64,000 nucleotides of DNA from Alphaproteobacteria bacterium (lineage in GTDB: Bacteria; Pseudomonadota; Alphaproteobacteria; UBA828). The notes under the pieces were generated by a model. The model searched no databases and was not told the DNA's origin. It saw only the letters and a program-made list of their open reading frames with translations. The first letter of the stretch is position 1; each line of letters begins with the position of its first letter. The position numbers and the translations under genes are program-made. The DNA is taken from contig CBDCQT010000003.1 of assembly GCA_965220745.1 (NCBI GenBank), positions 174,653 through 238,652 on the forward strand. The letters are read 5' to 3'. Below, in pieces: positions 1,041 through 41,975 of this stretch.

Positions 1041-1907
1041 TCATCCGCCGGCATCGCGCTCGCGCGTACCCTCGTAGCCGGAGGGCAAGTAGCCAAAGCG
1101 TTCCATTTGGGTGCGGTGACGCTCTACCACGCGGCGGACCTGTGCGTCGTCCAGCACCTCCCGCCAGCCGCCCATCTTGCCGGTCCGGAAGAACCGGTCC
1201 TGCGACGGGGTGCGCTCGATAAAGCCGGTGCGGTCTTCCTGCGCGCGCAGTGAGCGGAAGGACGAGTGCCGCATCGCCCGCTCCAAGCGCTCGCGCGGAG
1301 GCTTGAGGCCGAGGAAGGCCGAAATGGCGCGGAAGGTCGGGCCGGGCCGGCGACCCATGTCTTCGTAGCGCACGACGTGGAGTTGCGGATGCGAGCTGGC
1401 GGTCCAACTCTCGACATGGGTGGACCAGTCACTGTGGTGCTCGGGCACCTGGTCCGCCGACGCGGGCGAATGAAATCCCCTAGTCTCCATGAGCGTGATG
1501 ACGTCGTCCGTCGGCTGGCCCAGGTGGTGGGCGTAGGAGACGACCACGTCGAGCGGGTTGCGCACGACATAGATCGCCCCTGCCGTGAGCGACTGGGTAA
1601 TCATGGGCACGCCATCGGCCTCGACGAGGGCGTTGTGGGTCTTGACCATGACGGTATCGGGCGCGCTCTCGGCGATGAGTGCGTGCACCCTGGGCCTGAG
1701 GCGCGCAAGATCCTCCCCGCCCAGCGCCACCGGCGATCGGGAATCGAACCGCTCGTACCAGTGCGCTTGGCTGTCGCCCGCTGTCAACTCGGACATTCGG
1801 TTGATGTCAAAGGGCGCGCGCGAATTCCGCAGCAGGTTGTGCAGGAAGGCGCGTAGCCACGTGTTGCCCGACTTGGGGTAGGAGGCGAGCCACAGGATAC
1901 CGCTCAT
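1041..1907 (-). CDS. PAPS-dependent sulfotransferase (copy 1)
   Basis: 5'-PSB motif SYPKSGNTW, 3'-PB motif YVVRNPLDVVVS, C-terminal FFRTGKMGGW. Confidence 0.92.
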   Translation of the reverse strand: MSGILWLASYPKSGNTWLRAFLHNLLRNSRAPFDINRMSELTAGDSQAHWYERFDSRSPVALGGEDLARLRPRVHALIAESAPDTVMVKTHNALVEADGVPMITQSLTAGAIYVVRNPLDVVVSYAHHLGQPTDDVITLMETRGFHSPASADQVPEHHSDWSTHVESWTASSHPQLHVVRYEDMGRRPGPTFRAISAFLGLKPPRERLERAMRHSSFRSLRAQEDRTGFIERTPSQDRFFRTGKMGGWREVLDDAQVRRVVERHRTQMERFGYLPSGYEGTRERDAGG

Positions 1908-2061
1908 GAATTATCGCAGAGAGACCGAACGCTTATTAGGCCGGCAATGCCCTTCAGGTGACCGCGCGGCGCGAGTCCAGCAGATGCTGAACGCATCCCG
2001 GTCATCTCCTCCTTCCTGCCCAATCGCCTGATTCGAGCGTGCGGTCGGCTGGAATCCGCCC

Positions 2062-2091
2062 AAAGAAAAGGGAGCGGCCGAAGCCGCTCCC
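2062..2091 (-). terminator. Intrinsic terminator after porin 1
   Basis: GGGAGCGGC-TTCG-GCCGCTCCC stem followed by TTTTCTTT on the minus strand. Confidence 0.8.
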
Positions 2092-2117
2092 CACGCTCTT
2101 GACAACAATGCTCCAGA

Positions 2118-3116
2118 CTAGAAGTTGAGCATCGTCCCCAGAAGGATCTGAGTGAAGTCGTTCGCGCCACTCTCGCCCGCGCCAATCTGCATCCCGACAT
2201 CGATTCCCGGTCCGAGATTGTAGTTGGCATTGAAGGCCACGATGTTGCTGTCGTTGGACTCGTTGTCGCCGTACTGAACGCCCAGCATCATGGGGCCGTC
2301 GGTCCAGGACACACCAATGTCGGACTTCGAGGTCGTGACACCACCGATTTCCTGATCGTACACGGCGCCGCCTAGCGCGATCTGGTCGATGCTGATCGAG
2401 GCCCCGTAACGCATGCCCTCGGGATCCGCACCGCCGTCTTCGTTCGTGTAGCCCTCGTAGCTGACATTGGCGCTGAAGCTGCCGCCCATGACGTCGACCG
2501 AATAGCTAAGGGCGGCGGAGACCCCCTCCGAGTTCTGCCCCGGGTCGGCAGTACCCGTTCCGCCATAGGAGGCTGTCGTATCCTCGGGCGCGTAGCTCGC
2601 GGCAAGGGAAATGCCGTTAAAGCTTGGCGAGAAGTAGAGGACCTTGATCGCATCCTCATTCATGATGGCGTTCGTCGTCCACATGCCGCCGATGCCGCCG
2701 AACCAAGGCGACTTGATGCCGCCGATAGGCACGGTCCCGCCTGGCGCCCAGACGACCGTCTGCTGCGCGGCGCCTTCGATTGCGCCGACGTGCAGGGAGC
2801 CGAAACCGCCGCTAAAGGTGATTTCCTGCTCGTCGCTGTGCTCGTAGTCGTTGGCGGCGAAGCGGACCCTGACGCCAACGGTGATGCCGTTGTCGAGGGT
2901 AGACGAGCCCGCGATCTGCATCTCCATGTTCTGCTGGATGACGTGGCCGCGATCATCCATGGCACCGTCCATGTCTCGGGCGACGAGAGCGGTGGTGTAG
3001 TAGCCGCCCACGCCTACGCTGATCGGCTCGGCCATCATCTCATCGGCAGACGCGACATTGCTGGCCAGCAGGCCAACAGCCGCGAGTGCCGTAGTTCCCA
3101 ACAATACCTTCTTCAT
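2118..3116 (-). CDS. Alphaproteobacterial porin (porin 1); no Shine-Dalgarno upstream in this orientation
   Basis: MKKVLLGTTAL signal peptide, TLDNGITVG, GGFGSLHVG, KVLYFSPSFNG, YNLGPGI, terminal Phe. Confidence 0.9.
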   Translation of the reverse strand: MKKVLLGTTALAAVGLLASNVASADEMMAEPISVGVGGYYTTALVARDMDGAMDDRGHVIQQNMEMQIAGSSTLDNGITVGVRVRFAANDYEHSDEQEITFSGGFGSLHVGAIEGAAQQTVVWAPGGTVPIGGIKSPWFGGIGGMWTTNAIMNEDAIKVLYFSPSFNGISLAASYAPEDTTASYGGTGTADPGQNSEGVSAALSYSVDVMGGSFSANVSYEGYTNEDGGADPEGMRYGASISIDQIALGGAVYDQEIGGVTTSKSDIGVSWTDGPMMLGVQYGDNESNDSNIVAFNANYNLGPGIDVGMQIGAGESGANDFTQILLGTMLNF

Positions 3117-3121
3117 GCTTC
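3107..3121 (-). repeat. Core site GAAGCATGAAGAAGG over the porin 1 start codon (inverted partner of 7228-7242)
   Basis: ccttcttcatgcttc is the exact reverse complement of 7228-7242. Confidence 0.9.
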
Positions 3122-3523
3122 GCGAGCGCAATTTTGGAGGTGATTCTGTACTCCGCTGTTATGATGGGGTAATTATGAGGTCCTGACGCGCTGGCGCTGA
3201 GCGCCCGAGAATTTCCGTAAGCGCTCAGGAAGCGGATTGATTACAACGTAAGCGTAGTCCTGCGTATTCCTGTCGGTAAGCGTTCCGTTCGCCCGTGGAG
3301 ATGTTGATCCACCCGCCGTTTCGCTTCCGCCAGCCCGATGATCGCAGGGGCGATTTTAGCGGCTGAGCGCGCGTTGCCAATCCCTTCTGAGCGGCCGGAG
3401 CCAGACGTCCTTGCGGGGCTTTGGGGCTGTGGAGACCGTGCCGTGTCGGCACAGTCCTCCGCGCCGAATCGAGCTTGTACAAGTCGCTGGTAACATGATT
3501 CGACATGCGCTATCGTCGAGCGC

Positions 3524-5923
3524 ATGGCGGTTCTCGACGATGATTTCCGCGCAGACGGGACGCTGAACGAGGGCGGTGACGGGCTCTGGTCGCCCCCCAG
3601 GCCGGCGCCATCGGGTGCGCCGCACGATTTGCCATCCCTGTACGAGCAGGAACGGGCGCGGGCCGACGCGGCCGAGGCACGCTGCGAAGAACTGCGCCAA
3701 GCGGAGCTTTCCGCCCGTACTGACGCTGGTTCGTGGAAGTCGCGCTTCAAGTCCTGCCGACGCCGGCTGAGCGAGGCCGAGGAGGAGACGAAGGAACTGC
3801 GCCGCGCGGCGAAGGACGTGCCGTCGTTGCAGGCCCAAGTGGCGCGCCTGACGACGCTGCTTTCCGAAGCCGGCATCGAGTCGAGCGAGACCGGGAAGGT
3901 CGAGGTGCTGGGCAAGGAAGTCGCCCGGCTTCGCAGGGCCTTGGCAGCGCAGCCGGGGAAGGCTGCGGCCGGGGAGGCTCGGCGGGCTCGCACGGCGCTG
4001 GAACAGGCGCAGCAGCACAAGGACACCATCAGGACGCAGCGCAAGGAGATCACCCGGCTGAACCGGGAAGTGGCCCGGCGCGACAAGGAGCTGGTCCGGC
4101 TCAATGAGCGCCTCGGCCAGCAGAAGGAACGGACGGAGGACATCAGGGAGACCGCCAAGAATCTGTCACAGGACTCTCTCCGGCTCTACAGGGAGGTCGG
4201 GTTCCTGCGCGACGCCGAGGCCCGATCCCGGTCGCTGTCCGAGGAGAACTTCTGGCTGCGCCATGCGCTTGACGTGTCCAGGCACGGGCAGAAGAAGTTG
4301 ACGGCCCGGATCGCCAAGCTCCGCGCGGCCGGAGCGACGCTGACGAAGTTGTCGTTCGACGAGGCGGCTCACCTGCGCAACGTTCTGCGACGGTCGCGAC
4401 GTCAGAAGACCATGATCGCCCGGCTGCGCAAGGAGAACGCCCGGCTGCGAAGGACCGCGCAGAGGGCGCGGAACCGGGTCGAGGCGCTGGAAGCCGACAT
4501 CGCGCGGCTGCGCTCGACCGGAGCGGTGCTGTCGAGAAGGCTCTACGGACGCAAGAGCGAGCAGCAGAAGAAGCCGGGCACGGGACGCAAGCGCGGCCAG
4601 CAGCGCGGCGCGCCCGGCCATGGCCGTACCCAGCGGCCCGGACTCGACGAACGGCTCGAAGAGCTCGAAGTGCCGGAGCAGGCGCGGGTCTGCGGGCACT
4701 GCGGCCAACCCTATGCGCCGAACGGCGCGGAGGTGTCCGCCCTGATCGAGTTCGAGGTCATCGTGTACAAGCGCGTGATCAGCCGTGAGCGATTGCGCCG
4801 GACCTGCGCGTGTGCGTCCTCGCCCGTGGAAGTGACCGCGCCCCCGGCGCCGCGGCTGTTCCCCACGACATCCTACGGAATCACCTTCTGGGCGCGCTTC
4901 CTCTTCGAGCACTGCGCCTGCTTCCGGCCCCTGCGCCGCGTCGCCGCGTGGTTCTCCAGCCAGGGACTGGCGGTCTCGCCGGGGACGCTGGCCAACAGCC
5001 GCAAGCGCTTCGCGGCGCTGTTCGAGAGCCTGTACGAGGCGATCCTCGCGCATCAGAACACCGCGGCGCTGCGCCATGCCGACGAGACCTCATGGCGCGT
5101 GCAGGAACTTCGTGGCGACGACTGCTCGAGCCGCGCCTGGCTGTGGACTTCGGTCAGCAGCGACGCGGTCTGCTTCCATATCGACCCGAGCCGCAGCGCC
5201 GAGGCGGCGCTCAAGCTGTTCGCCGAAGCCCTGCCCGGCACGATCATCGTCTGCGACCGCTATAGCGCGTACAAGCGCCTTGTTCGCCTTCTCGGGGACA
5301 TGGCGATTCTGGCCTACTGTTGGGCTCATCAACGCCGCGATTTTGTCGAGGCCGCCGCCGGCCAGCCTCGGCTGGAGCAATGGTGCCAGGGATGGGTCGG
5401 GCGGATCGCGGAGATCTACCGGCTGAACGGGGAGCGGCTCGAACATTACGACCCCGGCAGCAAACGCCAGACGGCGGCGTTCAGGAAGGCGACGCGCAAG
5501 CTGAAGAAGGCGCTCGACCGGCTGTTCGCGCAGGCCGAAGCGGAACTGGCCGCCTTGCCGGACCACGCGCGCGAGGCCAGGGCGCTGCGCTCCCTGCTCA
5601 ACCATCGCGAGGGGCTGTGCGTCTTCGTCGACAACCCCCTGGTCCCCATGGACAACAATTTTGCCGAGAGAATCCTGCGCGCGCCCGCGATAGGGCGAGG
5701 GTTGTCGCACGGCTCCGACAGCGAGGACGGCGCCCGGTTCACCGCGATCATGTACTCGGTCGTCGCCACGCTCTCGATGAACGGCATCGACGTCCTGCGC
5801 TGGCTTCAGGCGTGGCTCGAAGCGTGCGCGAAGAACGGCGGCCAACCGCCCGATGACCTGTCGGCCTGGCTGCCATGGTCGATGAGCGAGAAGCGCAGGC
5901 GCAAGTTCACGGCGCCGGGATGA
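3524..5923 (+). CDS. tnpC: IS66 DDE transposase with long N-terminal coiled coil
   Basis: LYGRKSE, RGQQRGAPGHGR, CxxC, HADETSW, CDRYSAY, CWAHQRRDF, DNNFAER, WLPW. Confidence 0.93.
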   Translation: MAVLDDDFRADGTLNEGGDGLWSPPRPAPSGAPHDLPSLYEQERARADAAEARCEELRQAELSARTDAGSWKSRFKSCRRRLSEAEEETKELRRAAKDVPSLQAQVARLTTLLSEAGIESSETGKVEVLGKEVARLRRALAAQPGKAAAGEARRARTALEQAQQHKDTIRTQRKEITRLNREVARRDKELVRLNERLGQQKERTEDIRETAKNLSQDSLRLYREVGFLRDAEARSRSLSEENFWLRHALDVSRHGQKKLTARIAKLRAAGATLTKLSFDEAAHLRNVLRRSRRQKTMIARLRKENARLRRTAQRARNRVEALEADIARLRSTGAVLSRRLYGRKSEQQKKPGTGRKRGQQRGAPGHGRTQRPGLDERLEELEVPEQARVCGHCGQPYAPNGAEVSALIEFEVIVYKRVISRERLRRTCACASSPVEVTAPPAPRLFPTTSYGITFWARFLFEHCACFRPLRRVAAWFSSQGLAVSPGTLANSRKRFAALFESLYEAILAHQNTAALRHADETSWRVQELRGDDCSSRAWLWTSVSSDAVCFHIDPSRSAEAALKLFAEALPGTIIVCDRYSAYKRLVRLLGDMAILAYCWAHQRRDFVEAAAGQPRLEQWCQGWVGRIAEIYRLNGERLEHYDPGSKRQTAAFRKATRKLKKALDRLFAQAEAELAALPDHAREARALRSLLNHREGLCVFVDNPLVPMDNNFAERILRAPAIGRGLSHGSDSEDGARFTAIMYSVVATLSMNGIDVLRWLQAWLEACAKNGGQPPDDLSAWLPWSMSEKRRRKFTAPG

Positions 5924-6801
5924 CCGGCGCGGTCGAGTGCCGCTACTACGGCCGCGACTTCACCACTGAGGAAATGGCGTTGCTGCGCGCCCTCGTCGCG
6001 TCCGACCCGCAGCCGACCCGCGCCGCCCTGTCGAGAGAGTTCTGCCGGCGCATCGGCTGGCTCAAGCCCGACGGCGGGATCAAGGACATGATGGCCCGTG
6101 TCACCATGCTCGCCATGCACCGCGACGGCGTGATCGCCCTGCCGCCGCCGAGGAGTCGGAAGCACCGGCCCAGGCCGATCGTGTTCGGACCCGACACCGA
6201 GCCGCCGCTGTTCCCTCCACCGACGACCCTCGACGAGGTCCGCCCCCTCGACTTCCGCATCGTCGTGAGCGGCAGCCGGGAAGGCAGGCTGTGGAACGAG
6301 TTCGTCGCCCGCTACCACTACCTCGGATACAAGACCCTGGTCGGCGCCCAGATGCGCTACGCCGTCCATGACCGCAACGGCTGGCCGCTCGCCATGCTCG
6401 GCTTCTCCACCGCCGCCTGGAAGCTCGCCCCGCGCGACCGCTTCATCGGATGGACGCCCGAGATGCGCGAGAAAAACCTGCCGCTCGTGGTCGACAACCC
6501 GCGCTTCCTGATATCGCCGTGGATCGAGATCCCCAACCTCGGCTCGCACATCCTCGCCATCGTGCGCCGCCGCCTGCCCACCGACTGGTCCGAGCGCTAC
6601 AACGTCACGCCCGTGCTGATCGAGACCTTCGTCGAAACCCCGCGCTACACCGGCGCCGTCTACCGGGCCTCGGGCTGGACCCATGTCGGGACCACCCAGG
6701 GGCGCGGACGCTACGACCGGGACAGGTTCTACGACAAGCCCCGCAAGGACGTCTGGCTCCGGCCGCTCAGAAGGGATTGGCAACGCGCGCTCAGCCGCTA
6801 A
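5920..6801 (+). CDS. DUF4338 (DruA-like) protein, IS-associated
   Basis: YHYLG...G.QMRY, RDRFIGW, NPRFLI.PW, LIETFV, G.VYRASGW..VG.TQGRGR; ATG overlaps the tnpC stop. Confidence 0.85.
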   Translation: MTGAVECRYYGRDFTTEEMALLRALVASDPQPTRAALSREFCRRIGWLKPDGGIKDMMARVTMLAMHRDGVIALPPPRSRKHRPRPIVFGPDTEPPLFPPPTTLDEVRPLDFRIVVSGSREGRLWNEFVARYHYLGYKTLVGAQMRYAVHDRNGWPLAMLGFSTAAWKLAPRDRFIGWTPEMREKNLPLVVDNPRFLISPWIEIPNLGSHILAIVRRRLPTDWSERYNVTPVLIETFVETPRYTGAVYRASGWTHVGTTQGRGRYDRDRFYDKPRKDVWLRPLRRDWQRALSR

Positions 6802-7227
6802 AATCGCCCCTGCGATCATCGGGCTGGCGGAAGCGAAGCGGCGGGTGGATCAACATCTCCACGGGCAAACGGAACGCTTACTCCTGTCGCTCAAACCCTA
6901 CATGTCGACGGCGGGATCGCCCCTCTCGGGGTCGAGTCGCACGCTCTCGACGGCGGCGACTCGGGCCGGTCCGGGACGAGGCGGGAGAGCGGGATCGGGT
7001 CGGTGCCGGCGGGCCTGATTGACGTGCGTGGCATGGCGGAGAGGGGGTGTCGTGGCATTTTGGCCACAGTGCCCATGGAAAACGACCGACCGTTAGAATT
7101 CGGTCATAAATTCGGTTGCGCGAGGGGGGTCGGTTGCCTCATTCTCCGGCTCCAGTGGGTTGGGACCGGTCCGAGCACGGGCGGTATGAGACCCAGAGGC
7201 TTTGGACCAATGAAAACAGAGGAGACA

Positions 7228-7242
7228 GAAGCATGAAGAAGG
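7228..7242 (+). repeat. Core site GAAGCATGAAGAAGG followed by non-porin sequence (attL-like junction)
   Basis: Porin RBS and ATG present, but the frame ends after 27 codons (stop at 7316); homology to the porin loci ends exactly here. Confidence 0.85.
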
Positions 7243-7274
7243 AAGCGCGCTGTATGGGCAAGCGCTTCGTTCAT

Positions 7275-7399
7275 GCGACATTCCTACGCTTGACTACGAT
7301 TGGCTACGACAAGTAGCTGATTCTATACACTGATCGTTCATCCCTCCCCGTAGCTTCCGTATCGACTTCGCGACTCCTGTACGCAGGCGTACGCAGGGG
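7275..7399 (+). promoter_or_regulatory. Two arrays of ~10-bp periodic direct repeats upstream of the integrases
   Basis: GCGACATTCC-TACGCTTGAC-TACGATTGGC-TACGACAAGT (7275-7314) and GCGACTCCTG-TACGCAGGCG-TACGCAGGGG (7370-7399), then TTGACA at 7401. Confidence 0.7.
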
Positions 7400-7606: not shown

Positions 7607-8797
7607 ATGTCACAGTACGGTGAGCGCACAATCTCAAAACGGACCGTCGATGCCCTTTCCGTCGAGGATCGGGACGCCATCTTCTGGGACCGGGACCTGT
7701 CCGGCTTCGGGGTGCGCGTCTACCCCTCCGGCCGCAAGGTCTACGTGGTGCAGAGCCGGGGTCCGGGGGGCTCCAGGCGGGTCACGCTGGGCCGGCACGG
7801 GAAGATCACCGCAGAGCAGGCGCGCAAGCGCGCCGCCGGGATCATCGACAGGATCAAGACCGGGCAGGAGCCGCTGCCGGTTGAGCCCAAGAAGGAGAAG
7901 GGGCCGACCGTAGCCGACCTTGCCGACCGCTTCATGCGCGCGCATGTGGCGGTGAACTGCAAGCCTGCGACGGCGGTGCGCTATGGCGGGCTGCTCAGGA
8001 ACTGCATCCTGCCCGTCCTGGGCTCCATGCCCATCGGCTCGGTCGAGCGCACGCACGTGGCGGACCTGCACTACGCGCTGCGTGACCGGCCGAGCTCGGC
8101 GAACAGGTCGGTCGACATTCTGAAGAAGATGTATTCCCTGGCCGAGGTGTGGGGCCTTCACCCGCAGGGGCGGAACCCGTGCCGGTCCGTGCGCAAGTAC
8201 AAGGAGCGCAAGCCACAGCGGTTCCTGAGCGCCGAGGAGTACCAGTGCCTGGGCCGGGTCCTGGACGAGATGGAGGCGGAGGGCACGGCCTGGCTCCCCG
8301 CGATTGCCGCGATTCGCCTGCTGATCCTGACCGGCTGCCGGCGCAACGAGATCCTGTCGCTGCGATGGGACGACGTCGACCGGTCCTCGGGCGAGTTGCG
8401 CCTGAGGGATGCGAAGACGGGCGGCAGGATGGTACCGCTGACGCCCACGGCGGCGGCGGTGCTGGACGCGATCCCGCGCATGCCGGGCAGTCCGTGGGTG
8501 ATCGCAGGGAAGCGGCCGGGGAAGCACCTGAGGAACGTCAACGAGCTCTGGTATCGCCTGCGGGTCCGGGCCGACCTGAAGGACGTGCGCCTCCATGACC
8601 TGCGTCATTCCTGGGCCAGCAGGGCGCTGGCGCTCGGCGAGAGCCTGCCGATGATCGGCAGGCAGCTGGGCCACACGCAGGTGCAGACGACGGCGCGCTA
8701 CGCGCACCTGGCACAGGACACGGAGAAGGTCTCTGCGGCCAGGGTGGCGGACAGCATCGAGGCCGACATCATGGTTCCGGACGCGGAGGCGGCATGA
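7607..8797 (+). CDS. Tyrosine recombinase/integrase with N-terminal arm-binding domain (Int1)
   Basis: WDRDLSGFGVRV arm domain; catalytic R (TGCRRNE), K (AKTG), HDLRH, LGH, Y (TARYAH). Confidence 0.95.
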   Translation: MSQYGERTISKRTVDALSVEDRDAIFWDRDLSGFGVRVYPSGRKVYVVQSRGPGGSRRVTLGRHGKITAEQARKRAAGIIDRIKTGQEPLPVEPKKEKGPTVADLADRFMRAHVAVNCKPATAVRYGGLLRNCILPVLGSMPIGSVERTHVADLHYALRDRPSSANRSVDILKKMYSLAEVWGLHPQGRNPCRSVRKYKERKPQRFLSAEEYQCLGRVLDEMEAEGTAWLPAIAAIRLLILTGCRRNEILSLRWDDVDRSSGELRLRDAKTGGRMVPLTPTAAAVLDAIPRMPGSPWVIAGKRPGKHLRNVNELWYRLRVRADLKDVRLHDLRHSWASRALALGESLPMIGRQLGHTQVQTTARYAHLAQDTEKVSAARVADSIEADIMVPDAEAA

Positions 8798-13238: not shown

Positions 13239-13253
13239 CCGGGGTGGCCGGCC

Positions 13254-35011: not shown

Positions 35012-36065
35012 GAGCATTTTTCGATCTTAGAGAATCTTTAGAATTTTCAATCGCTTGGATTTGTGATTCAAGATGCAGGCTGGTGAAGGAGGCCAGCCTG
35101 CATGACACGACCTCTTTCGAATGATCTGCGTCGCCGGGTGGTGACGGCGGTGGTAGACGGCGGCATGACCCGCCGGGGCGCGGCAAGGCGCTTCGGGATT
35201 GCGCCGTCGACGGCGATCAAGTGGGTCGATGCCTGGCGCCGCACGGGGAGCTATCGCCCCAGAGCGCAAGGCGGCGACAGGCGCTCGCGGCGGATCGAGG
35301 CCCATGCTGAGGTGGTGCTTGCGCTGGTCGACGAGACCCCAGACATGACGCTGGCGGAGATCGCCACCCATCTGGAAGACGAGCACGGTCTGCGGGTCTC
35401 CCAGAGTACCGTGTGGCGCTTCTTCCACCGCCGCGGCATCACCTTCAAAAAAACGGCGCACGCCAGCGAGCAGCAGCGCCCTGACGTGCTCAGGCGCAGG
35501 CGCGCCTGGGTCGACACCCAACCCGATCTCGACCCTGAGAAGCTCGTCTTCGTCGATGAAACAGGCGCTTCCACCAAGATGGCGCGACGATGCGGCCGGG
35601 CTCCTCGCGGACATCGCTGCCGCGCGCCTGTACCCCATGGGCACTGGAAGACCACAACCTTCGTCGGCGCCTTGAGGCTGAGCGGAATGACCGCACCCAT
35701 GGTGCTCGACGGTGCCATGCACGGGGCCGCTTTCTTCGCCTACGTCGAACAGGTGCTGGTGCCCGCGCTCGAGCCCGGCGACATCGTGGTGATGGACAAC
35801 CTTGCCTGCCACCGCAGCGCCGCCGTGCGCGACGCCATCCAAAGCGCCGGGGCCGAGTTGCGCTTCCTGCCGCCATACAGTCCCGACTTCAACCCGATCG
35901 AAATGGCCTTCTCCAAGCTCAAGGCCTCCCTCAAACGACGCGCCGCCCGCTCCGTCAACGAACTCTGGGAGGCCATCGGCGAGGCCACAGACACCTTCAC
36001 ACCCGCTGAGTGCCAAAACTACTTCGCTGCTGCGGGATATGACTACGTGTGATCGGATAGCGCTC
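35012..36065 (+). mobile_element. IS630-family element
   Basis: Imperfect IR TAGAGCATTTTTCGATC / GATCGGATAGCGCTCTA with flanking TA. Confidence 0.88.
35102..36052 (+). CDS. IS630 transposase (single frame through the A7 run)
   Basis: FVDET, VMDNL..H, LPPYSPDFNPIE. Confidence 0.95.
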   Translation: MTRPLSNDLRRRVVTAVVDGGMTRRGAARRFGIAPSTAIKWVDAWRRTGSYRPRAQGGDRRSRRIEAHAEVVLALVDETPDMTLAEIATHLEDEHGLRVSQSTVWRFFHRRGITFKKTAHASEQQRPDVLRRRRAWVDTQPDLDPEKLVFVDETGASTKMARRCGRAPRGHRCRAPVPHGHWKTTTFVGALRLSGMTAPMVLDGAMHGAAFFAYVEQVLVPALEPGDIVVMDNLACHRSAAVRDAIQSAGAELRFLPPYSPDFNPIEMAFSKLKASLKRRAARSVNELWEAIGEATDTFTPAECQNYFAAAGYDYV

Positions 36066-36068
36066 TAG

Positions 36069-37500
36069 TACTACAGTTTCGTTTTACTGCTCTGTATGGC
36101 TCTCTGGGCCGAACGGCTGCGGAGAGGTGGATCGATGAGCGTGGCGGATTGGTCGGGCTCGCTTCTGGAATGGGAGCGCGAGCTGGGGTTGTGGAAGCTG
36201 CGTCTGGGCCCGGTATTCGGGCGTCGTGAGGTGCGCGAGACGGGGAGCGCGTTTTTGGACGGCCTGCTGTCGGGGATCGCGCGCAAGACGGGCTGGATGA
36301 TGGCGGAACAGGCGGGGCTGTCCCGGCCGTGGCGGATGCAGGCGCTTCTGGGCCGCAGCCGCTGGGATGCCGAGGCGCTGCGGGACGAGGTCCGAGCCTA
36401 TGCGCTCGAGGCGCTGGGCTGCCCGGACGGCGTGCTGGTGGTCGATGAGACGGGCTTCGTGAAGAAGGGCCGGCATTCGGTCGGTGTTGCCCGCCAGTAT
36501 TCGGGGACGGCGGGTCGTGTCGAGAACAGCCAGGTCGGTGTCTTTCTTGCCTACGCGGGCCATCTTGGGCAGGCGCTGATCGACCGCCGGCTTTATCTGC
36601 CGCGCGCGTGGGCCGAGGACGGCGCACGTCGGGCCAAGACGCAGGTGCCCGACGAGATCGTCTTTGCGACCAAGCCGGCGCTCGCCCGCGCGATGATTGC
36701 TGCGGCGCTCGATGCGGACCTGCCCTGCGCCTTCGTTCTCGCCGACGCGGTCTATGGCTCAGATACCCGGCTGCGGCGCATGCTGGAAGAGCGAGGACAG
36801 AGCTATGTGCTGGCGGTGCGCAGCAACCACACTCTGCGCTTTGTCACCCCGTCCGGGCTGATCGAGACCGATCCCGCGACCATGGCCGATGATCTGGACG
36901 ACGGGGCCTGGGCGGCCCATGCCGCCGGCGAGGGCAGCAAGGGCCCAAGGCTCTACGACTGGGCTCGCATCGCCCTGGGCCGGCCCTGCGACGAAGGGCC
37001 GGAACGATGGTTGCTCATCCGCCGTTCCCGCAACGATCCGAACAAGCGGGCCTACTCTCTCGTCTTCTGCCCCCAAGACACCACGCTCGCCGAACTCGCC
37101 GGTGTCGCAGGCCTGCGATGGACCATCGAGGAGTGCTTCCAGAGAGCCAAGGACGACCTCGGCCTCGACCATTGCGAGGCCCGCTCCTGGCACGGTTGGC
37201 ATCGCCACATCAGTCTCGTCATGGCCGCGGCCGCCTTCCTCGCCAAACTCGCTGCCGAGCTGCGAAGCGCCGCATCCGGCAAAGAGAACGAAACGAGTCC
37301 CAACCCGCCAATCGCCGCCTGATGCTCCTCGCCGCCCTCGTGCCTTCGGTCCCCGAAATCCAAACCCTTCTCGCTCGCTTGATATTCAAACCGTCGCAAA
37401 GAGCTTCCGACATCATCCAGTGGTCTCTATGGCGACGGCAACACCAAGCCTCAGCGGCTGTCTCTCACTACAAGAAACGAACATAAACGCAACTGTAGTA
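36069..37500 (+). mobile_element. IS701-family element A
   Basis: IR TACTACAGTT(T/G)CGTTT; TSD CTAG at 36065-36068 and 37501-37504. Confidence 0.93.
36135..37322 (+). CDS. IS701 transposase
   Basis: VVDETGF.KKG, VARQYSGTAG, ADAVYG, RWTIEECF, EARSWHGWHRH. Confidence 0.95.
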   Translation: MSVADWSGSLLEWERELGLWKLRLGPVFGRREVRETGSAFLDGLLSGIARKTGWMMAEQAGLSRPWRMQALLGRSRWDAEALRDEVRAYALEALGCPDGVLVVDETGFVKKGRHSVGVARQYSGTAGRVENSQVGVFLAYAGHLGQALIDRRLYLPRAWAEDGARRAKTQVPDEIVFATKPALARAMIAAALDADLPCAFVLADAVYGSDTRLRRMLEERGQSYVLAVRSNHTLRFVTPSGLIETDPATMADDLDDGAWAAHAAGEGSKGPRLYDWARIALGRPCDEGPERWLLIRRSRNDPNKRAYSLVFCPQDTTLAELAGVAGLRWTIEECFQRAKDDLGLDHCEARSWHGWHRHISLVMAAAAFLAKLAAELRSAASGKENETSPNPPIAA

Positions 37501-37523: not shown

Positions 37524-38399
37524 TTACTTACTGCGCAGCGCAGCATCGCGCTCGTTCGTACCTTTGTGGCCGGAGGGCAGGTAGCCGAAGCGCTCCATTT
37601 GGGCGCGGTGACGCTCCACCACGCGGCGGACCTGCGCGTCGTCCAGCACCTCCCGCCAGCCGCCCTCCTTGCCGGCACGGAAGAAGCGCTCCTGCGACGG
37701 GGTGCGCTCGATAAAGCCGGTGCGGTCCTCCTGCGCGCGCAGTGAGCGGAAGGACGAGTACCGCATCGCCCGCTCCAGGCGCTCGCGCGGCGGCTTGAGG
37801 CCGAGGAAGGCCGAAATGGCGCGAAAAGTCGGGCCGGGCCGGCGGCTCATGTCTTCGTAGCGCACGACGTGGAGCTGCGGATGCGAGCTGGCGGTCCAGC
37901 TCTCGACATGGGTGGACCAGTCGCTGTGGTGCTCGGGCACTTGGTCCGCCGACGCGGGAGAATGGAATCCCCTTGTCTCCATGAGCGTGATGACGTCGTC
38001 CGTCGGCTGGCCCAGGTGGTGGGCGTATGAGACGACCACGTCGAGCGGGTTGCGCACGACGTAGATCGCCCCTGCCGTGAGCGACTGGGTAATCATAGGC
38101 ACGCCGTCGACTTCGACGAGGGCGTTGTGGGTCTTGACCATGACGGTATCGGGCGCGCTCTCGGCGATGAGTGCGTGCACCCTGGGCCTGAGGCGCGCAA
38201 GATCCTCCCCGCCCAGCGCCGCCGGCGATCGGGAATCGAACCGCTCGTACCAGTGCGCTTGGCTGTCGCCCGCTGTCAACTCGGACATTCGGTTGATGTC
38301 AAAGGGCGCGCGCGAATTCCGCAGCAGGTTATGCAGAAAGGCGCGTAGCCACGTGTTGCCCGACTTGGGGTAGGAGGCGAGCCACAGGATACCGCTCAT
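37524..38399 (-). CDS. PAPS-dependent sulfotransferase (copy 2)
   Basis: Near-identical to copy 1; SYPKSGNTW. Confidence 0.92.
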   Translation of the reverse strand: MSGILWLASYPKSGNTWLRAFLHNLLRNSRAPFDINRMSELTAGDSQAHWYERFDSRSPAALGGEDLARLRPRVHALIAESAPDTVMVKTHNALVEVDGVPMITQSLTAGAIYVVRNPLDVVVSYAHHLGQPTDDVITLMETRGFHSPASADQVPEHHSDWSTHVESWTASSHPQLHVVRYEDMSRRPGPTFRAISAFLGLKPPRERLERAMRYSSFRSLRAQEDRTGFIERTPSQERFFRAGKEGGWREVLDDAQVRRVVERHRAQMERFGYLPSGHKGTNERDAALRSK

Positions 38400-38444
38400 A
38401 TGCAAATTGCCAGTGGCCACCCCTCGGAAACAAGCTTAAGTAGA

Positions 38445-38495: not shown

Positions 38496-39488
38496 CTAGA
38501 AGTTGAGCATCGTCCCCAGAAGGATCTGAGTGAAGTCGTCCATGCCCTTCTCGCCCGCGCCGATCTGCAGCCCGAGATCGACTCCCGCTCCGAGATTGTA
38601 GTTGGCATTGAAGGTTACGATGCTGCTGTTCTCGGACTCGCTATCACCATACTGAACGCCCAGCATCATGGGGCCGTCGGTCCAGGACACGCCGACATCG
38701 GAATGCGAGTTCGATACTCCGCCGATTTCCTGATCGTACACGGCACCGCCGAGCGCGATCTGGTCGATGCTGATCGAGGCCCCGTAGCGCAAGCCCGAGG
38801 GATCTTCACCGCCGCCCTCGTTCGTGTAGCCCTCGTAGCCGACATTGGTGCTGAAGCTACCGCCCATGACGTCGACCGAGTAGCTAAGGGCGACAGATAC
38901 CCCCTCCGAGTTCTGCCCCGCTTCGTCATTGGTCCTTCCAGCATAGGAGTCTGTCGAATTCTCAGGCGCGTAGCTCGCCGCAAGGGAAAGGCCGTTGAAG
39001 TTCGGCGAGAAGTAGACAACCTTGAGCGCATCCTCGTTCATGATGTCGTTCGTCGTCCACATGCCGTCAATTCCTTGGAACCACGGCGACTTGATACCAC
39101 CGATCGGCACGGTCCCTCCCGGCGCCCAGATAACCGTCTGCTGCGCGGCGCCTTCGATTGCGCCGACATGAAAGGAGCCGAAGCCGCCCTTGAAATAGAC
39201 TTCCTGCTCATCGCTGTGTTCGTAATCGTTCGCGGTGAAGCGGACGCGCACACCAGAGGTAATGCCGTTGTCCAGCGTGGTCTCTGCTCTGAGCTGCATC
39301 TCCATGTTCTGGTTGATGCCGTGGCCACGATCATTGACACCGTCCTGGTCGTAGCCGATGGCGGCGATCGTGTAGTAGCCGCCCACGCCGACTTCCATCG
39401 GCACCATCATGTCCTGAGCCTGCGCCGCACCAGCCGCGAAAGCACCAGCGGCTACGAGCGCCGTAGTTCCCAAAAGGAGTCGCTTCAT
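38496..39488 (-). CDS. Porin 2 (preceded by GAGGAG RBS; predicted expressed copy)
   Basis: Paralogue of porin 1; upstream AACAGAGGAGACAGAAGC-ATG. Confidence 0.9.
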   Translation of the reverse strand: MKRLLLGTTALVAAGAFAAGAAQAQDMMVPMEVGVGGYYTIAAIGYDQDGVNDRGHGINQNMEMQLRAETTLDNGITSGVRVRFTANDYEHSDEQEVYFKGGFGSFHVGAIEGAAQQTVIWAPGGTVPIGGIKSPWFQGIDGMWTTNDIMNEDALKVVYFSPNFNGLSLAASYAPENSTDSYAGRTNDEAGQNSEGVSVALSYSVDVMGGSFSTNVGYEGYTNEGGGEDPSGLRYGASISIDQIALGGAVYDQEIGGVSNSHSDVGVSWTDGPMMLGVQYGDSESENSSIVTFNANYNLGAGVDLGLQIGAGEKGMDDFTQILLGTMLNF

Positions 39489-39493
39489 GCTTC

Positions 39494-39985
39494 TGTCTCC
39501 TCTGTTTTCATTGGTCCAAAGCCTCTGGGTCTCATACCGCCCGTGCTCGGACCGGTCCCAACCCACTGGAGCCGGAGAATGAGGCAACCGACCCCCCTCG
39601 CGCAACCGAATTTATGACCGAATTCTAACGGTCGGTCGTTTTCCATGAGCACTGTGGCCAAAATGCCACGACACCCCCTCTCCGCCATGCCACGCACGTC
39701 AATCAGGCCCGCCGGCACCGACCCGATCCCGCTCTCCCGCCTCGTCCCGGACCGGCCCGAGTCGCCGCCGTCGAGAGCGTGCGACTCGACCCCGAGAGGG
39801 GCGATCCCGCCGTCGACATGTAGGGTTTGAGCGACAGGAATACGCAGGACTACGCTTACGTTGTAATCAATCCGCTTCCTGAGCGCTTACGGAAATTCTC
39901 GGGCGCTCAGCGCCAGCGCGTCAGGACCTCATAATTACCCCATCATAACAGCGGAGTACAGAATCACCTCCAAAATTGCGCTCGC
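39494..39985. promoter_or_regulatory. 492-bp putative invertible promoter/RBS segment, copy 2 (intact)
   Basis: Flanked by 124-bp inverted repeats (39370-39493/39986-40109, 3 mismatches seen) starting with the core; contains array GCGACAGGAA-TACGCAGGAC-TACGCTTACG at 39831-39860. Confidence 0.75.
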
Positions 39986-39990
39986 GAAGC

Positions 39991-41001
39991 ATGAAGCGAC
40001 TCCTTTTGGGAACGACGGCGCTCGTAGCCGCTGGTGCTTTCGCGGCCGGTGCGGCGCAGGCTCAGGACATGATGGTGCCGATGGAAGTCGGCGTGGGTGG
40101 CTACTACACCACCGCTCTTGTCGCCAAAGACGTGGACGGTGCCGCGGATGATCGCGGCCACGTCATCCGGCAGAACATGGAGATGCAGTTCAGGGCAGAG
40201 GGGACGCTGGACAACGCCATTACAGCTGGCGTCAGGGTTCGCTTCACCGCCAACGACTACGAACACAGCGACGAGCAGGAAGTCTATTTCAAAGGAGGTT
40301 TCGGCTCCTTGCACATCGGCGCAATCGAGGGCGCCGCGCAGCAGACGGTCATATGGGCACCAGGCTCAAGTGTGCCTATCGGCGGCATCAAGTCGCCCTG
40401 GTTCGGCGGCATCGGCGGCATGTGGAATACGGGCCCGGGAACTGGTGTTGCCATCATGAACGAGGATGCGATCAAGGTCCTCTACTTCTCGCCGAACTTC
40501 AACGGCCTCTCCCTTGCCGCGAGCTACGCGCCTGAGGATACGACAGACTCCTATGGCGGAACGAGCACTGCCGACCCGGGGCAGAACTCGGAACAGGTCT
40601 CTGCCGCCCTCAGCTACACGGTCGACGTCATGGGCGGCAGCTTCAGCGCCAATGTCGGCTACGAGGGCTACACGAACGAGAGCGGTGGTGAGGATCCCGA
40701 GGGCTTGCGTTACGGGGCCTCGATCAGCATCGACCAGATCGCGCTAGGCGGTGCCGTGTACGACAAAGATGTTGGCGGCGTCGCGACGTCGCATTCCGAT
40801 ATCGGCGTGTCCTGGACCGACGGTCCCCTGATGCTGGGCGTTCAGTACGGCGACAACGAGGGTACCGACAGCAACATCGTGGCCTTCAATGCCAACTACA
40901 ATCTCGGACCGGGAATCGATGTCGGGATGCAGATCGGCTCGGGCGAGAGTGGCGCGGACGACTTCACTCAGTTCCTGCTCGGGACCATGTTCAACTTCTA
41001 G
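39991..41001 (+). CDS. Porin 3 (no Shine-Dalgarno upstream)
   Basis: Paralogue; first 40 aa identical to porin 2. Confidence 0.9.
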   Translation: MKRLLLGTTALVAAGAFAAGAAQAQDMMVPMEVGVGGYYTTALVAKDVDGAADDRGHVIRQNMEMQFRAEGTLDNAITAGVRVRFTANDYEHSDEQEVYFKGGFGSLHIGAIEGAAQQTVIWAPGSSVPIGGIKSPWFGGIGGMWNTGPGTGVAIMNEDAIKVLYFSPNFNGLSLAASYAPEDTTDSYGGTSTADPGQNSEQVSAALSYTVDVMGGSFSANVGYEGYTNESGGEDPEGLRYGASISIDQIALGGAVYDKDVGGVATSHSDIGVSWTDGPLMLGVQYGDNEGTDSNIVAFNANYNLGPGIDVGMQIGSGESGADDFTQFLLGTMFNF

Positions 41002-41030
41002 GCGTAAACATCGTCGTCTATGGCTTTGAG

Positions 41031-41058
41031 GGAGCGGCTTCGGCCGCTCCTTCTACTT
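41031..41058 (+). terminator. UUCG hairpin after porin 3
   Basis: GGAGCGGC-TTCG-GCCGCTCC-TTCTACTT. Confidence 0.65.
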
Positions 41059-41108
41059 AAGCTCGTCTTTTGAGGGTTGGCCGTGAGGCGGTCACTAGCA
41101 ATTTGCAT

Positions 41109-41975
41109 ATGAGCGGTATCCTGTGGCTCGCCTCCTACCCCAAGTCGGGCAACACATGGCTGCGCGCCTTTCTGCATAACCTGCTGCGGAATGCGCGCAC
41201 GCCCTTTGACATCAACCGAATGTCCGAGTTGACAGCGGGCGACAGCCAAGCGCACTGGTACGAGCGGTTCGATTCCCGACCGCCGGTGGCGCTGGGCGGG
41301 GAGGATCTTGCGCGCCTCAGGCCCAGGGTGCACGCGCTCATCGCCGAGAGCGCGCCCGATACCGTCATGGTCAAGACCCACAACGCCCTCGTCGAGGCCG
41401 ATGGCGTGCCCATGATCACCCAGTCGCTCACGGTAGGGGCGATCTATGTCGTGCGCAACCCGCTCGACGTGGTCGTCTCCTACGCCCACCACCTGGGCCA
41501 GCCGACTGACGACGTCATCACGCTCATGGAGACTAGGGGATTTCATTCGCCCGCGTCGGCGGACCAGGTGCCCGAGCACCACAGCGACTGGTCCACCCAT
41601 GTCGAGAGTTGGACCGCCAGCTCGCATCCGCGACTCCACGTCGTGCGCTACGAAGACATGAGCCGCCGGCCCGGCCCGACCTTCCGCGCCATTGCGGCCT
41701 TCCTCGGCCTCAAGCCTCCGCGCGAGCGCCTGGAGCGGGCGATGCGGCACTCGTCCTTCCGCTCACTGCGCGCGCAGGAGGACCGCGTCGGCTTTATCGA
41801 GCGCACCCCGTCGCAAGACCGCTTCTTCCGTGCCGGCAAGGTTGGCGGCTGGCGGGAGGTGCTGGACGACACGCAGGTCCGCCGCGTGGTAGAGCGTCAC
41901 CGCACCCAAATGGAGCGCTTCAGCTACTTGCCCTCCGGCTACGAGGGTACGGGTGAACGCAATACCGGCCGATGA
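41109..41975 (+). CDS. PAPS-dependent sulfotransferase (copy 3)
   Basis: Near-identical to copies 1 and 2. Confidence 0.92.
   Translation: MSGILWLASYPKSGNTWLRAFLHNLLRNARTPFDINRMSELTAGDSQAHWYERFDSRPPVALGGEDLARLRPRVHALIAESAPDTVMVKTHNALVEADGVPMITQSLTVGAIYVVRNPLDVVVSYAHHLGQPTDDVITLMETRGFHSPASADQVPEHHSDWSTHVESWTASSHPRLHVVRYEDMSRRPGPTFRAIAAFLGLKPPRERLERAMRHSSFRSLRAQEDRVGFIERTPSQDRFFRAGKVGGWREVLDDTQVRRVVERHRTQMERFSYLPSGYEGTGERNTGR

What the first reader, a model, noticed from the sequence alone, without database searches (positions are those of the whole stretch)
1041..41975. Candidate recombinase-driven switch selecting among three porin-sulfotransferase cassettes
Seen: the 11-bp core GAAGCATGAAG, which contains the porin ATG, occurs at four junctions (3111-3121 -, 7228-7238 +, 39483-39493 -, 39986-39996 +). 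Each pair brackets the same 492-bp segment in inverted orientation; I saw one mismatch between the two segment copies, whereas the porins are visibly diverged. Identity between the two loci stops at or within a few bases of the core. One end of the segment (B) supplies a GAGGAG RBS; the other (A) has none. In this assembly B faces porin 2 and a 27-codon dead-end ORF, while porins 1 and 3 face A. Two intact tyrosine recombinases lie next to the locus. Known: invertible promoters with paired tyrosine recombinases (fimS with FimB/FimE) drive phase variation. Inference: locus 1 is an ON/OFF switch and locus 2 an either/or switch for porin+sulfotransferase operons, run by arm-domain integrases of a mobile element. 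I do not know of a description of this combination.
Basis: partly seen in the sequence, partly recalled or inferred. Interest (0 to 1): 0.9.

Follow-up and report, generated by a model that had tools for sequence, protein, structure and literature searches.

The report
Mobile element inserting at porin start codons
The repeated 11-base "core" marks where a mobile DNA element with two integrase genes cuts in at the start codon of outer-membrane porin genes, bringing its own two-way promoter piece, so promoters and porin genes get re-paired; a fast on/off switch is possible but not shown.

Summary
There are four GAAGCATGAAG cores. The two 492-bp segment copies differ at 1 of 514 positions, and identity stops at the cores. 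GAGGAG lies only at end B. Two intact arm-type tyrosine integrases lie beside locus 1.

Relatives show what the core is. One genome has an empty site, phoB-promoter|ATGAAGAAGG|porin1-sulfotransferase-OMP-backbone. In six genomes the same promoter is joined at the same ATG to the 27-codon "dead-end ORF" followed by Int1-Int2. So that ORF is the integrase-proximal att arm, and the core is the crossover site of an integrative mobilizable element (TrwC relaxase, HTH_17). The 492-bp segment is the element's far end: end B re-drives the displaced target porin and end A drives a cargo porin-sulfotransferase.

The window holds two sibling elements in mirror image. It fits if the second entered through the A-side core.

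Core-delimited reassortment is therefore supported on an evolutionary scale. Ongoing inversion is untested: only assembled contigs were available, and they showed no alternative joints.

Verdict: new variant of 5'-end-targeting integrative elements. The switch reading has about 20-25% probability.

The parts
31..882 (-). OMP beta-barrel gene. First gene of the conserved chromosomal backbone next to the target cassette.
   Evidence: Pfam OMP_b-brl 1.5e-17. Collinear with the backbone in G008, G020, G013, G005, G011 and G001.
1041..1907 (-). Sulfotransferase ST1 (target cassette).
   Evidence: Pfam Sulfotransfer_1 2.5e-29.
2118..3116 (-). Porin1. This is the chromosomal target porin, contiguous with the backbone.
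   Evidence: Pfam Porin_4 5.1e-35. It is 96% identical to the porin at the empty site of G008. A 10,831-nt collinear match at 90.8% ends at window 3119.
3111..3121 (-). Core a: junction of segment end A with the porin1 head. Proposed boundary of element E2.
3122..3275 (-). Segment copy 1, A part (154 bp). It holds the ~85-bp module that also occurs upstream of Int1.
   Evidence: 100% identical to 39832-39985. nhmmer profile positions 345-512.
3276..6881 (+). IS66-family insertion with a 799-aa DDE_Tnp_IS66 ORF (3524-5923) and a DruA-like ORF (5875-6801). The 8-bp target duplication lies at 3268-3275 and 6882-6889.
   Evidence: (pair I11, 146-nt arms, 99%). Related IS sit at the same segment position in G005 and G011.
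6890..7227 (-). Segment copy 1, B part: palindrome box, long conserved leader region and GAGGAG RBS.
7228..7238 (+). Core b: junction of end B with the integrase leader. This is the joint expected in the circular form of the element.
   Evidence: Homology of G005, G020, L080 and G011:C2 to the window starts at 7233, 7230, 7231 and 7219.
7233..7316 (+). 27-codon 'leader' ORF. It is conserved as DNA (ATGAAGAAGG, then the inverted repeat GAAGCGC..GCGCTTC), not as protein. It is the integrase-proximal att arm.
7607..8797 (+). Int1, an arm-type (P4/SXT-like) tyrosine integrase.
   Evidence: Pfam results; catalytic residues.
8837..10054 (+). Int2, a paralogous tyrosine integrase (60% identical to Int1).
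10097..37322 (.). Body of element E2:
- TraB/GumN
- Phd-PIN pair (14259-14955)
- SSB
- Toprim
- YspA
- NikA-like (20007-20420)
- TrwC relaxase (22233-25358 -)
- HTH_17 excisionase-like (27066-27332 -)
- DruA-like
- YhgA-like
- AEP-TOTE helicase (31806-34262)
- IS630 and IS4-like insertions
   Evidence: The cargo is syntenic with the G005:C4 element.
37524..38420 (-). Sulfotransferase ST2 (cargo cassette of E2).
38496..39488 (-). Porin2 (cargo porin of E2).
   Evidence: Porin2-type plus ST are linked to the same cargo in G005 and G001.
39483..39493 (-). Core c: junction of end B of segment 2 with the porin2 head. Proposed other boundary of E2; direct repeat of core a.
   Evidence: Contig record 21 of run X3 bridges 39138-39839.
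39494..39985 (+). Segment copy 2 (492 bp, B end on the left, A end on the right). It is the far-end promoter/5'-UTR module of element E1.
39986..39996 (+). Core d: junction of end A with the porin3 head.
39991..41975 (+). Porin3 (39991-41001) and ST3 (41070-41975): cargo cassette of sibling element E1.
42000..64000 (.). Body of sibling element E1, in mirror image of E2. It includes a second TrwC at 58067-61189 (+) and runs off the contig end.
   Evidence: 7,809 nt at 91.1% (20592-28348 vs 62830-55082, inverted), plus collinear smaller blocks.

Best explanation
The core is the crossover (att) site of a family of integrative mobilizable elements with a tandem pair of arm-type tyrosine integrases. 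These elements insert exactly at the start codon of porin genes.

Standard element layout, as seen integrated:
- host promoter
- ATG-leader
- Int1-Int2
- cargo (relaxase, excisionase-like HTH, defence genes)
- sulfotransferase and cargo porin, read leftwards from end A
- the 492-bp segment
- end B, reading into the displaced target porin

The 492-bp segment is thus the element's own two-way promoter/5'-UTR module. After insertion, end B (with the GAGGAG RBS) re-drives the target porin. End A drives the cargo porin-sulfotransferase. The host's porin promoter now reads the leader and the integrases.

The window holds two sibling elements in mirror image. E1 runs from segment 2 and porin3-ST3 rightwards off the contig. 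E2 is roughly 3122-39482. The arrangement fits if E2's circle (porin2 <- A[segment 1]B -> leader-Int) recombined through its A-side core with E1's junction B[segment 2]|porin1. That event would give the four cores as found.

Shown:
- empty versus occupied sites
- breakpoints at the ATG
- the standard layout on one contig of G020
- the mirror-image siblings

Inferred:
- that Int1/Int2 catalyse these events
- the order of events
- that use of either core of the segment re-pairs promoters and porin cassettes
- that the near-identity of the two segment copies reflects a recent core-bounded exchange
For: (1) Empty site.
- G008:C7 reads phoU-phoB-beta promoter|ATGAAGAAGG|porin1 type (96% aa)-ST-OMP-backbone.
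- It is collinear with window 3119..-7687 over 10,831 nt at 90.8%.
- G015:C68 is a second empty site.

(2) Occupied sites.
- In 6 of 19 phoB loci of the genus, the same beta promoter is joined at the same ATGAAGAAGG to the leader plus an Int1 orthologue: G005, G013, G020, G006, G011:C3 and G001:C413.

(3) Breakpoints at the core.
- Homology of four other contexts to the window begins at 7219-7233, inside or next to core b.
- The 12 leader junctions carry four kinds of upstream partner: alpha-B 3, beta 6, beta' 1, gamma 2.

(4) Standard layout.
- On one contig of G020, the insertion between beta and the backbone porin starts with leader-Int1-Int2 and ends with porin<-A[segment]B->target porin-ST-OMP-backbone.
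- G005 shows the same layout once its IS-split segment is rejoined. Both halves carry the same 8-bp duplication CCTTGTCG.

(5) Element machinery.
- TrwC relaxase, NikA-like and HTH_17 genes, and two integrases with intact catalytic residues.

(6) Mirror-image sibling.
- E1 matches E2 at 91.1% over 7.8 kb. The cassettes match at 88.8%. The segment matches at 99.8%, with identity ending at the cores.

(7) Segment swap.
- G011:C2 keeps both flanks at 87-93% up to window 3122 and 7219, but carries a different segment between the cores (47.9% identity in the MAFFT alignment).
Against: - No experiment or read evidence shows that Int1/Int2 act at the core.
- E1's integrase end is not in the assembly, because the contig ends.
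- G000 has no phoB-beta locus of this kind, so its own empty site cannot be shown.
- The cargo between segment and integrases in G020 is mostly unlike G000's, so 'one element' there is inferred from its ends.
- Integration through the A-side core is inferred, not observed.
- The core flanks vary a lot between contexts, which is unusual for core-type binding sites.
- Porin 5' ends are mosaic, and porin pairs within a genome resemble each other. Homologous recombination or gene conversion is therefore also at work and could account for some re-pairings.
- A 99.8% segment beside 89-91% flanks needs an extra, unproven event.
Confidence: 0.62

Rival explanations
1. The 492-bp segment is a reversible invertible switch, flipped by Int1/Int2 between its two inverted cores. 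Larger inversions occur between cores of the two loci. A clonal population would then vary which porin-sulfotransferase operon sits behind end B.
For: - 11-bp inverted cores flank the segment, and the RBS lies at one end only.
- The integrases evidently use cores at both ends of the segment in different genomes: end B joined to the target in G020 and G005, end A joined to the target in G000, G001 and G011:C2.
- The two copies are 99.8% identical exactly between the cores, while the flanks are 89-91%.
- Porin2-type genes are joined to end B in G000, G001 and G011 but to end A in G005.
- There is precedent: Xer1 inverts vpma genes at sites just upstream of their start codons (PMC2268961, passages).
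Against: - None of 12 leader junctions is joined to end A.
- The locus-1 copy is split by an IS, and the split has persisted.
- G001 has the same layout, but its two segments are only 67.7% alike, so it shows no ongoing exchange.
- Arm-type integrases normally need specific arm arrangements (recalled).
- End-A porins are intact everywhere, and end A is conserved, so it is probably a working start region.
- No promoter was located in the segment.
Confidence: 0.22
2. The integrases play no part at the cores. The cores are merely the conserved translation start of paralogous porins. The pattern would then come from homologous recombination and gene conversion between inverted porin/sulfotransferase repeats, plus an old inverted duplication.
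For: - Both segment ends and the ATG context are conserved in genomes where no integrase is nearby.
- Signal-peptide regions are mosaic between otherwise distant porins.
- Porin pairs within a genome are more alike than between genomes: G013 67%, G003 84%, G015 68%.
- Long inverted repeats are present, such as ST1/ST3 at 96% over 889 nt.
- On the B side of locus 1 homology ends at the core anyway, so a conversion tract must stop there.
Against: - It does not explain why the leader-Int1-Int2 unit is joined at the same ATG to four unrelated upstream contexts.
- It does not explain why empty and occupied phoB sites differ by an insertion starting exactly there.
- 10-15 bp of identity is short for RecA-dependent exchange (recalled).
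- On the A side, porin1 and porin3 remain about 85% alike further in, yet identity falls from 100% to about 76% right at the core (repeat families D7, I6 and I9).
Confidence: 0.12
3. The duplicated segment and the mirror-image elements are an assembly artefact, such as a fold-back or collapsed repeat.
For: - The genome is a 13-contig assembly with 5% contamination.
- Another contig (C8) is a near-perfect palindrome.
Against: - The two copies differ by an IS insertion and one base, and both variants of that base appear in independent contigs of the runs (place 39648).
- The mirror arms are only 89-91% alike.
- A contig bridges porin2 to end B.
- The same layout recurs in G001.
Confidence: 0.03

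Closest known systems
Integrative elements that target the 5' end of a protein gene and restore it: SXT/R391 at prfC, and dusA-specific islands such as IMEVchUSA3
   Same: - A tyrosine integrase inserts the element inside the 5' end of a gene, and the element supplies a new promoter and a new N-terminus (PMC8409611, abstract and passages; PMC4482086, search listing and abstract start only).
- The element is mobilizable, with a relaxase and a small directionality-factor-like gene.
- The integrases have the same arm-domain type, as far as I recall.
   Different: - The crossover here contains the ATG itself.
- The targets are several paralogous porin genes behind different promoters (beta, gamma, alpha-B), not one housekeeping gene.
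- There are two tandem integrases.
- The promoter module is two-way and also drives a cargo porin-sulfotransferase.
- Both ends of the module carry the core, and both seem to have been used.
Mycoplasma vpma/vsp/vsa surface-protein inversion systems (Xer1, HvsR)
   Same: - A tyrosine recombinase is encoded beside a family of surface-protein genes.
[quoted passage not shown]
- One expression site is exchanged among the genes (PMC2268961, abstract and passages).
   Different: - There the switching is shown in populations; here it is not.
- Here the recombinases are arm-type integrases of a mobile element.
- The loci are 36 kb apart.
- The segment has two outward-facing ends rather than one promoter.
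fimS invertible promoter with FimB/FimE
   Same: A short DNA piece flanked by short inverted repeats, with two paralogous tyrosine recombinases next to it (recalled; PMC8777976 seen in the search listing only).
   Different: - fimS carries a mapped promoter, its repeats do not contain the start codon, and its recombinases are not part of a mobile element (recalled).
- No two-state population has been seen here.
Site-specific accretion of integrative elements at one att site
   Same: Two related elements sit at one target, sharing att-type junctions (PMC13651849 and PMC5704250, search listings only).
   Different: Accretion is usually head-to-tail. Here the siblings are mirror images, as expected if the second entered through the other core of the segment.
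IS66-family insertion sequences
   Same: DDE_Tnp_IS66 transposase. GTAAGCG termini and an 8-bp target duplication (the family traits are recalled).
   Different: - The ORF is a single long one of 799 aa.
- It carries a DruA-like passenger gene.
- It has 146-bp inverted ends.
- Related copies sit at the same segment position in three genomes.

Membership tests
Integrative mobilizable element (IME) with tyrosine integrase | Integrase gene at one end, next to an att junction | tested here: met
   Int1 starts 372 nt from the ATG of core b. Homology breaks at that core in 4 other contexts.
Integrative mobilizable element (IME) with tyrosine integrase | Empty target site in relatives that differs from the occupied site by the insertion | tested here: met
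   G008:C7 and G015:C68 are empty. 6 genomes are occupied at the same ATGAAGAAGG.
Integrative mobilizable element (IME) with tyrosine integrase | Direct repeats of the core at both ends | tested here: met
   Cores a and c (both on the - strand) bound 3122-39482. Cores b and d (both on the + strand) are the alternative pair. In G020, beta|ATAAAGAAGG and B|ATGAAGAAGT are direct.
Integrative mobilizable element (IME) with tyrosine integrase | Mobilization genes without a full conjugation apparatus | tested here: inconclusive
   TrwC relaxase and a NikA-like gene were found. No type IV secretion family appeared among the 34 ORFs scanned, but two large ORFs (483 and 518 aa) have no Pfam match.
Integrative mobilizable element (IME) with tyrosine integrase | Excision to a circle and re-integration | not testable with these tools
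   Only assembled contigs of four runs could be laid.
Invertible promoter switch (fimS type) | Short DNA piece flanked by inverted repeats | tested here: met
   11-bp inverted cores flank 492 bp at locus 2. At locus 1 the piece is interrupted by a 3.6-kb IS.
Invertible promoter switch (fimS type) | Promoter inside the piece reading out of one end | tested here: inconclusive
   An RBS lies only at end B. No sigma-70-like site was found. A palindrome box and a ~200-nt conserved region lie upstream of end B.
Invertible promoter switch (fimS type) | Both orientations present in one population | tested here: inconclusive
   Only assembled contigs could be laid, and they drop rare variants, so they give no answer either way.
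Multi-gene inversion system (vpma/vsa type) | Recombination sites at the 5' end of each family member | tested here: met
   The core sits at the start of all three porins and of the integrase leader.
Multi-gene inversion system (vpma/vsa type) | Only one member expressed at a time from a single expression site | not tested
Arm-type (P4/SXT-like) tyrosine integrases | N-terminal arm-binding domain, SAM-like core-binding domain, and catalytic domain with R, HxxR, H and Y | tested here: met
   PF13356, PF14659 and PF00589 in both proteins. Residues read.
IS66 family | DDE_Tnp_IS66 transposase, inverted ends, 8-bp target duplication | tested here: met
   PF03050 at 3.3e-55. 146-nt arms at 99%. TCCTGTCG on both sides.

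The most novel reading that the evidence does not exclude
The tandem integrases form a 'start-codon recombination' system. Any promoter end that finishes in ..GAAGC/ATGAAG can be joined to any gene head that starts with it. Promoter ends are segment ends A and B and the host promoters beta and gamma. Gene heads are the target porin, the cargo porins and the integrases' own leader. Because the segment carries the core at both ends in inverted orientation, the same enzymes would also flip it and exchange it between loci. A lineage, and perhaps a clonal population, could then vary which porin-sulfotransferase cassette is strongly expressed, and could couple integrase expression to a porin promoter.
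Probability: 0.25. Interest if true: 0.85.

Novelty: new variant of a known kind. Interest (0 to 1): 0.62.

Why it matters
Porins are the main entry points for nutrients, antibiotics and phages. An element that inserts at the porin start codon, re-drives the displaced porin from its own promoter, adds a second porin with a sulfotransferase, and puts its integrases under the host's porin promoter would be a compact way for mobile DNA to rewire the cell surface.

The family is also hugely expanded in this genus.

If both cores of the promoter module are really used, this is a natural cassette-exchange system with a very short, ATG-containing site. That is of interest for phase variation and as a recombination tool.

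Tried and rejected
Searches that gave nothing or little:
- The plasmid collection had no match to locus 2. It had only distant integrase matches to the Int region.
- The search for related loci with Int1 returned 2 loci, one of them the G015 contig again.
- Rfam found no family in 39300-40200 at E<=1.
- The promoter scan found 0 sigma-70-like sites.
- A metagenome scan for an exact 25-base A-end|leader joint found 0 records. The general leader pattern found only 1 record (L080), so the zero has almost no power.

Reads:
- Four runs of one sample (X1-X4) were laid on 36000-44000. They are Logan contigs only.
- There were no joints. Contigs break at 39483 and 39839. One contig bridges porin2 to end B.
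- This says nothing about rare variants. Parts without cover are not used as evidence.

RNA structure:
- RNAalifold on 16 B-type promoter ends found only the palindrome box and one weak hairpin.
- The idea of a structured leader RNA was dropped.

Rejected readings:
- That the segment is part of the chromosome and the element ends at core b with the pair b->d. This would need a non-standard element with a flipped segment and porin3 as target, whereas porin1 is the backbone-contiguous gene.
- That the segment is a MITE with 11-bp ends. Its ends are the conserved start regions of porins in all relatives.
- Using the segment's orientation relative to outer flanks (G013 versus G005/G020) as proof of site-specific inversion. 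Recombination between the inverted sulfotransferase or porin repeats would give the same picture.
- Using porin types as orthologues. Within-genome similarity makes this unsafe, so the 'linkage swaps' are only suggestive.

Corrected figure:
- '3 mismatches' was corrected to 1.

Limits:
- Supplementary files of papers were not opened.
- Novelty rests on searches, which found no description of an element targeting porin start codons. Subscription journals are not covered.

Full report
THE OBSERVATION

- The 11-base word GAAGCATGAAG occurs four times in the window, at the stated places. Chance expectation is 0.04. The whole 4.82-Mb genome has eight copies.
- At locus 2 the two inverted cores bracket 492 bp, between porin2-ST2 reading leftwards and porin3-ST3 reading rightwards.
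- At locus 1 the cores are 4,106 bp apart. The segment copy is split by a 3,606-bp IS66-family element with GTAAGCG ends and an 8-bp duplication.
- Identity ends at the cores. GAGGAG lies only at end B.
- Int1 and Int2 are intact arm-type tyrosine integrases.

WHAT LIES BETWEEN THE LOCI

- Positions 7239-37400 hold a mobile element. Its genes are Int1, Int2, TraB/GumN, a Phd-PIN pair, SSB, Toprim, a NikA-like gene, a TrwC relaxase, an HTH_17 excisionase-like gene, DruA-like and AEP-TOTE genes, and IS copies.
- To the right of ST3 lies a second, related element in mirror image. It matches over 7,809 nt at 91.1% and smaller blocks are collinear. It runs off the contig end.
- The window from about 20 kb to 63 kb is therefore a large imperfect palindrome centred on segment 2.

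WHAT THE SEGMENT IS

- A profile of the segment finds full-length copies at 72-84% identity in five other species of the genus. Each lies between two divergent porin genes, and both ends, including the core, are conserved.
- End B is one member of a family of porin upstream regions. Sixteen aligned examples share an invariant palindrome box about 185-200 nt upstream, a conserved stretch, an RBS and the ATG.
- No Rfam family, no consensus promoter and no convincing conserved RNA fold was found.

THE DECISIVE COMPARISON

The 27-codon ORF after core b is conserved as DNA, not as protein. Together with Int1-Int2 it is always preceded by a B-type upstream region. That region takes four forms:
- End B of the segment: G000, G015, G001:C401.
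- A region 'beta' just downstream of phoU-phoB: G005, G013, G020, G006, G011:C3, G001:C413.
- A beta-like segment in G011:C2.
- A region 'gamma' directly after the backbone gene: G007 and metagenome record L080.

The 19 phoB loci of the genus divide as follows:
- 6 carry beta|leader-Int.
- 2 carry beta|porin.
- 4 have a convergent porin joined to end A.
- 7 show nothing in the 1.5 kb fetched.

G008 is a clean empty site:
- It reads phoB-beta|ATGAAGAAGG|porin1 type (96% identical)-ST-OMP-backbone.
- It is collinear with the window from 3119 leftwards for 10.8 kb at 90.8%.
- Empty and occupied sites diverge right after ATGAAGAAGG.

The core is therefore the crossover region of the element, and the 'dead-end ORF' is its integrase-proximal arm.

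THE STANDARD ELEMENT

- On one contig of G020, the insertion between beta and the backbone porin begins with leader-Int1-Int2. It ends with a porin read from end A, then the segment, then end B reading into the target porin-ST-OMP-backbone.
- G005 is the same, and its cargo is syntenic with G000's. Its segment was later split by a related IS at the very same position. Both halves, now on two contigs, carry the same 8-bp duplication.
- The segment is therefore the far end of the element. End B replaces the promoter of the displaced target, and end A serves the cargo porin-sulfotransferase.
- The circular form should read cargo porin <- A[segment]B -> leader-Int. That is exactly the joint seen at locus 1 of the window and on a small contig of G015, whose phoB site is empty.

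READING THE WINDOW (inference)

- E1 comprises segment 2, porin3-ST3 and the mirror-image body. It sits with its end B where the target should be.
- E2's circle (porin2 <- A[segment 1]B -> leader) recombined through its A-side core with E1's B|porin1 junction.
- That gives A|porin1 (core a), B|leader (core b, unchanged), B|porin2 (core c) and A|porin3 (core d, unchanged).
- It also gives the mirror-image bodies and direct repeats a and c around E2.
- G001 has the same layout, and G011:C2 has the same locus-1 joint.

WHAT REMAINS UNEXPLAINED

- The two segment copies are 99.8% alike, while the neighbouring element DNA is 89-91% alike. In G001 the two segments are only 67.7% alike.
- G011:C2 has both flanks at 87-93% up to the cores, but a different segment between them.
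- Its two cores also carry 1-2-base deletions, and its porin is out of frame.
- These core-bounded replacements fit exchange at both cores, for example between sister replicons. Gene conversion that stops where homology ends cannot be excluded.

THE SWITCH HYPOTHESIS

- The enzymes seem able to use cores at both ends of the segment, and those cores are inverted. Inversion is therefore mechanistically plausible, and re-pairing of promoter ends and gene heads has happened during evolution.
- There is no evidence for a working population-level switch.
- The only read data are assembled contigs without alternative joints.
- None of 12 leader junctions is joined to end A.
- The locus-1 copy is interrupted by an IS.
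- End-A porins are intact, and end A is conserved, so 'A = OFF' is unproven.
- Mosaic signal-peptide regions and within-genome similarity of porins show that homologous recombination also shapes these loci.

COMPARISON WITH KNOWN SYSTEMS

[quoted passage not shown] Examples are IMEVchUSA3 at dusA and SXT at prfC (PMC8409611, passages).
- The switch reading resembles the Xer1-driven vpma system, whose sites lie just upstream of the start codons (PMC2268961, passages).
- Five literature searches found no description of an element that targets porin start codons with a two-way promoter module and tandem integrases.

VERDICT

- Best explanation: att junctions of two accreted sibling elements (confidence about 0.6).
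- Reversible switch: about 0.2.
- Recombination without the integrases: about 0.1.
- Artefact: about 0.03.

Noticed in passing
window 3276-6881; L025 about 9290; L027 about 10446; L024 about 10297: Related IS66-family elements, each with a DruA-like passenger gene, sit at the same position of the segment in G000, G005 and G011, just before the ~85-bp module. In G005 the two halves lie on different contigs but share the duplication CCTTGTCG. This suggests strong target preference, or an old insertion followed by IS-IS recombination.
   Followed up: partly
window 42000-64000: A second, sibling mobile element in mirror image of the first: 91.1% over 7.8 kb, with a second TrwC at 58067-61189. It is cut by the contig end, and its integrase end is not in the assembly.
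   Followed up: partly
genome contig C8, 1-17118: A 5,970-bp inverted repeat (99.97%) flanks 5.2 kb that holds a paralogous tandem integrase pair. The inner repeat ends lie about 15 nt upstream of GAAGCCATGAAGAAG, the start of a 610-aa lipoprotein-like gene. The same start context also lies about 300-400 nt upstream of integrase pairs on C9 and C10. It may be a real invertible unit or a fold-back assembly artefact.
   Followed up: partly
whole genus: Tandem integrase pairs, and some trios, of this family are greatly expanded. G000 itself has at least 8 pairs.
   Followed up: no
window 7050-7067 and 39654-39671; 16 aligned upstream regions (A1): An invariant palindrome box (GTGGCATTT..GCCAC type) lies about 185-200 nt upstream of the ATG in every B-type upstream region. 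It occurs whether the region drives a porin or the integrase leader. It is probably an operator for an unknown regulator.
   Followed up: partly
window 3210-3290 and about 7340-7430; L021 4974-5060; L062-L065: An ~85-bp module with TACGCAGG, ACGCTTACG and GCGCTTACGG motifs occurs about 100 nt from end A of the segment. It occurs again about 100 nt downstream of core b, before Int1 and its homologues. These are candidate arm-type binding sites.
   Followed up: partly
L058 (G011:C2), both cores: Both cores carry small deletions (ATGAGAAGG and ATGAAAGG), and the porin1-type gene is thereby out of frame. These may be scars of faulty recombination, or a 'locked' copy.
   Followed up: no
window 7233-7275; phoB loci of G006, G011:C3 and G001:C413: Two leader types both have an inverted repeat directly after ATGAAGAAGG, with different sequences (GAAGCGC..GCGCTTC versus GGGCC..GGCCC). 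The repeat is kept although the letters differ. It could be a binding site or a hairpin.
   Followed up: no
phoB loci of G004, G010, G014 and G019: In 4 of 19 genomes phoB is followed not by the beta region but by a convergent porin whose head is joined to end A of a segment. No explanation was worked out.
   Followed up: no
window 14259-14955, 28332-29093, 31806-34262: The element's cargo includes a Phd-PIN toxin-antitoxin pair, a DruA-like gene and an AEP-TOTE primase-helicase, which are defence or conflict-system genes.
   Followed up: no
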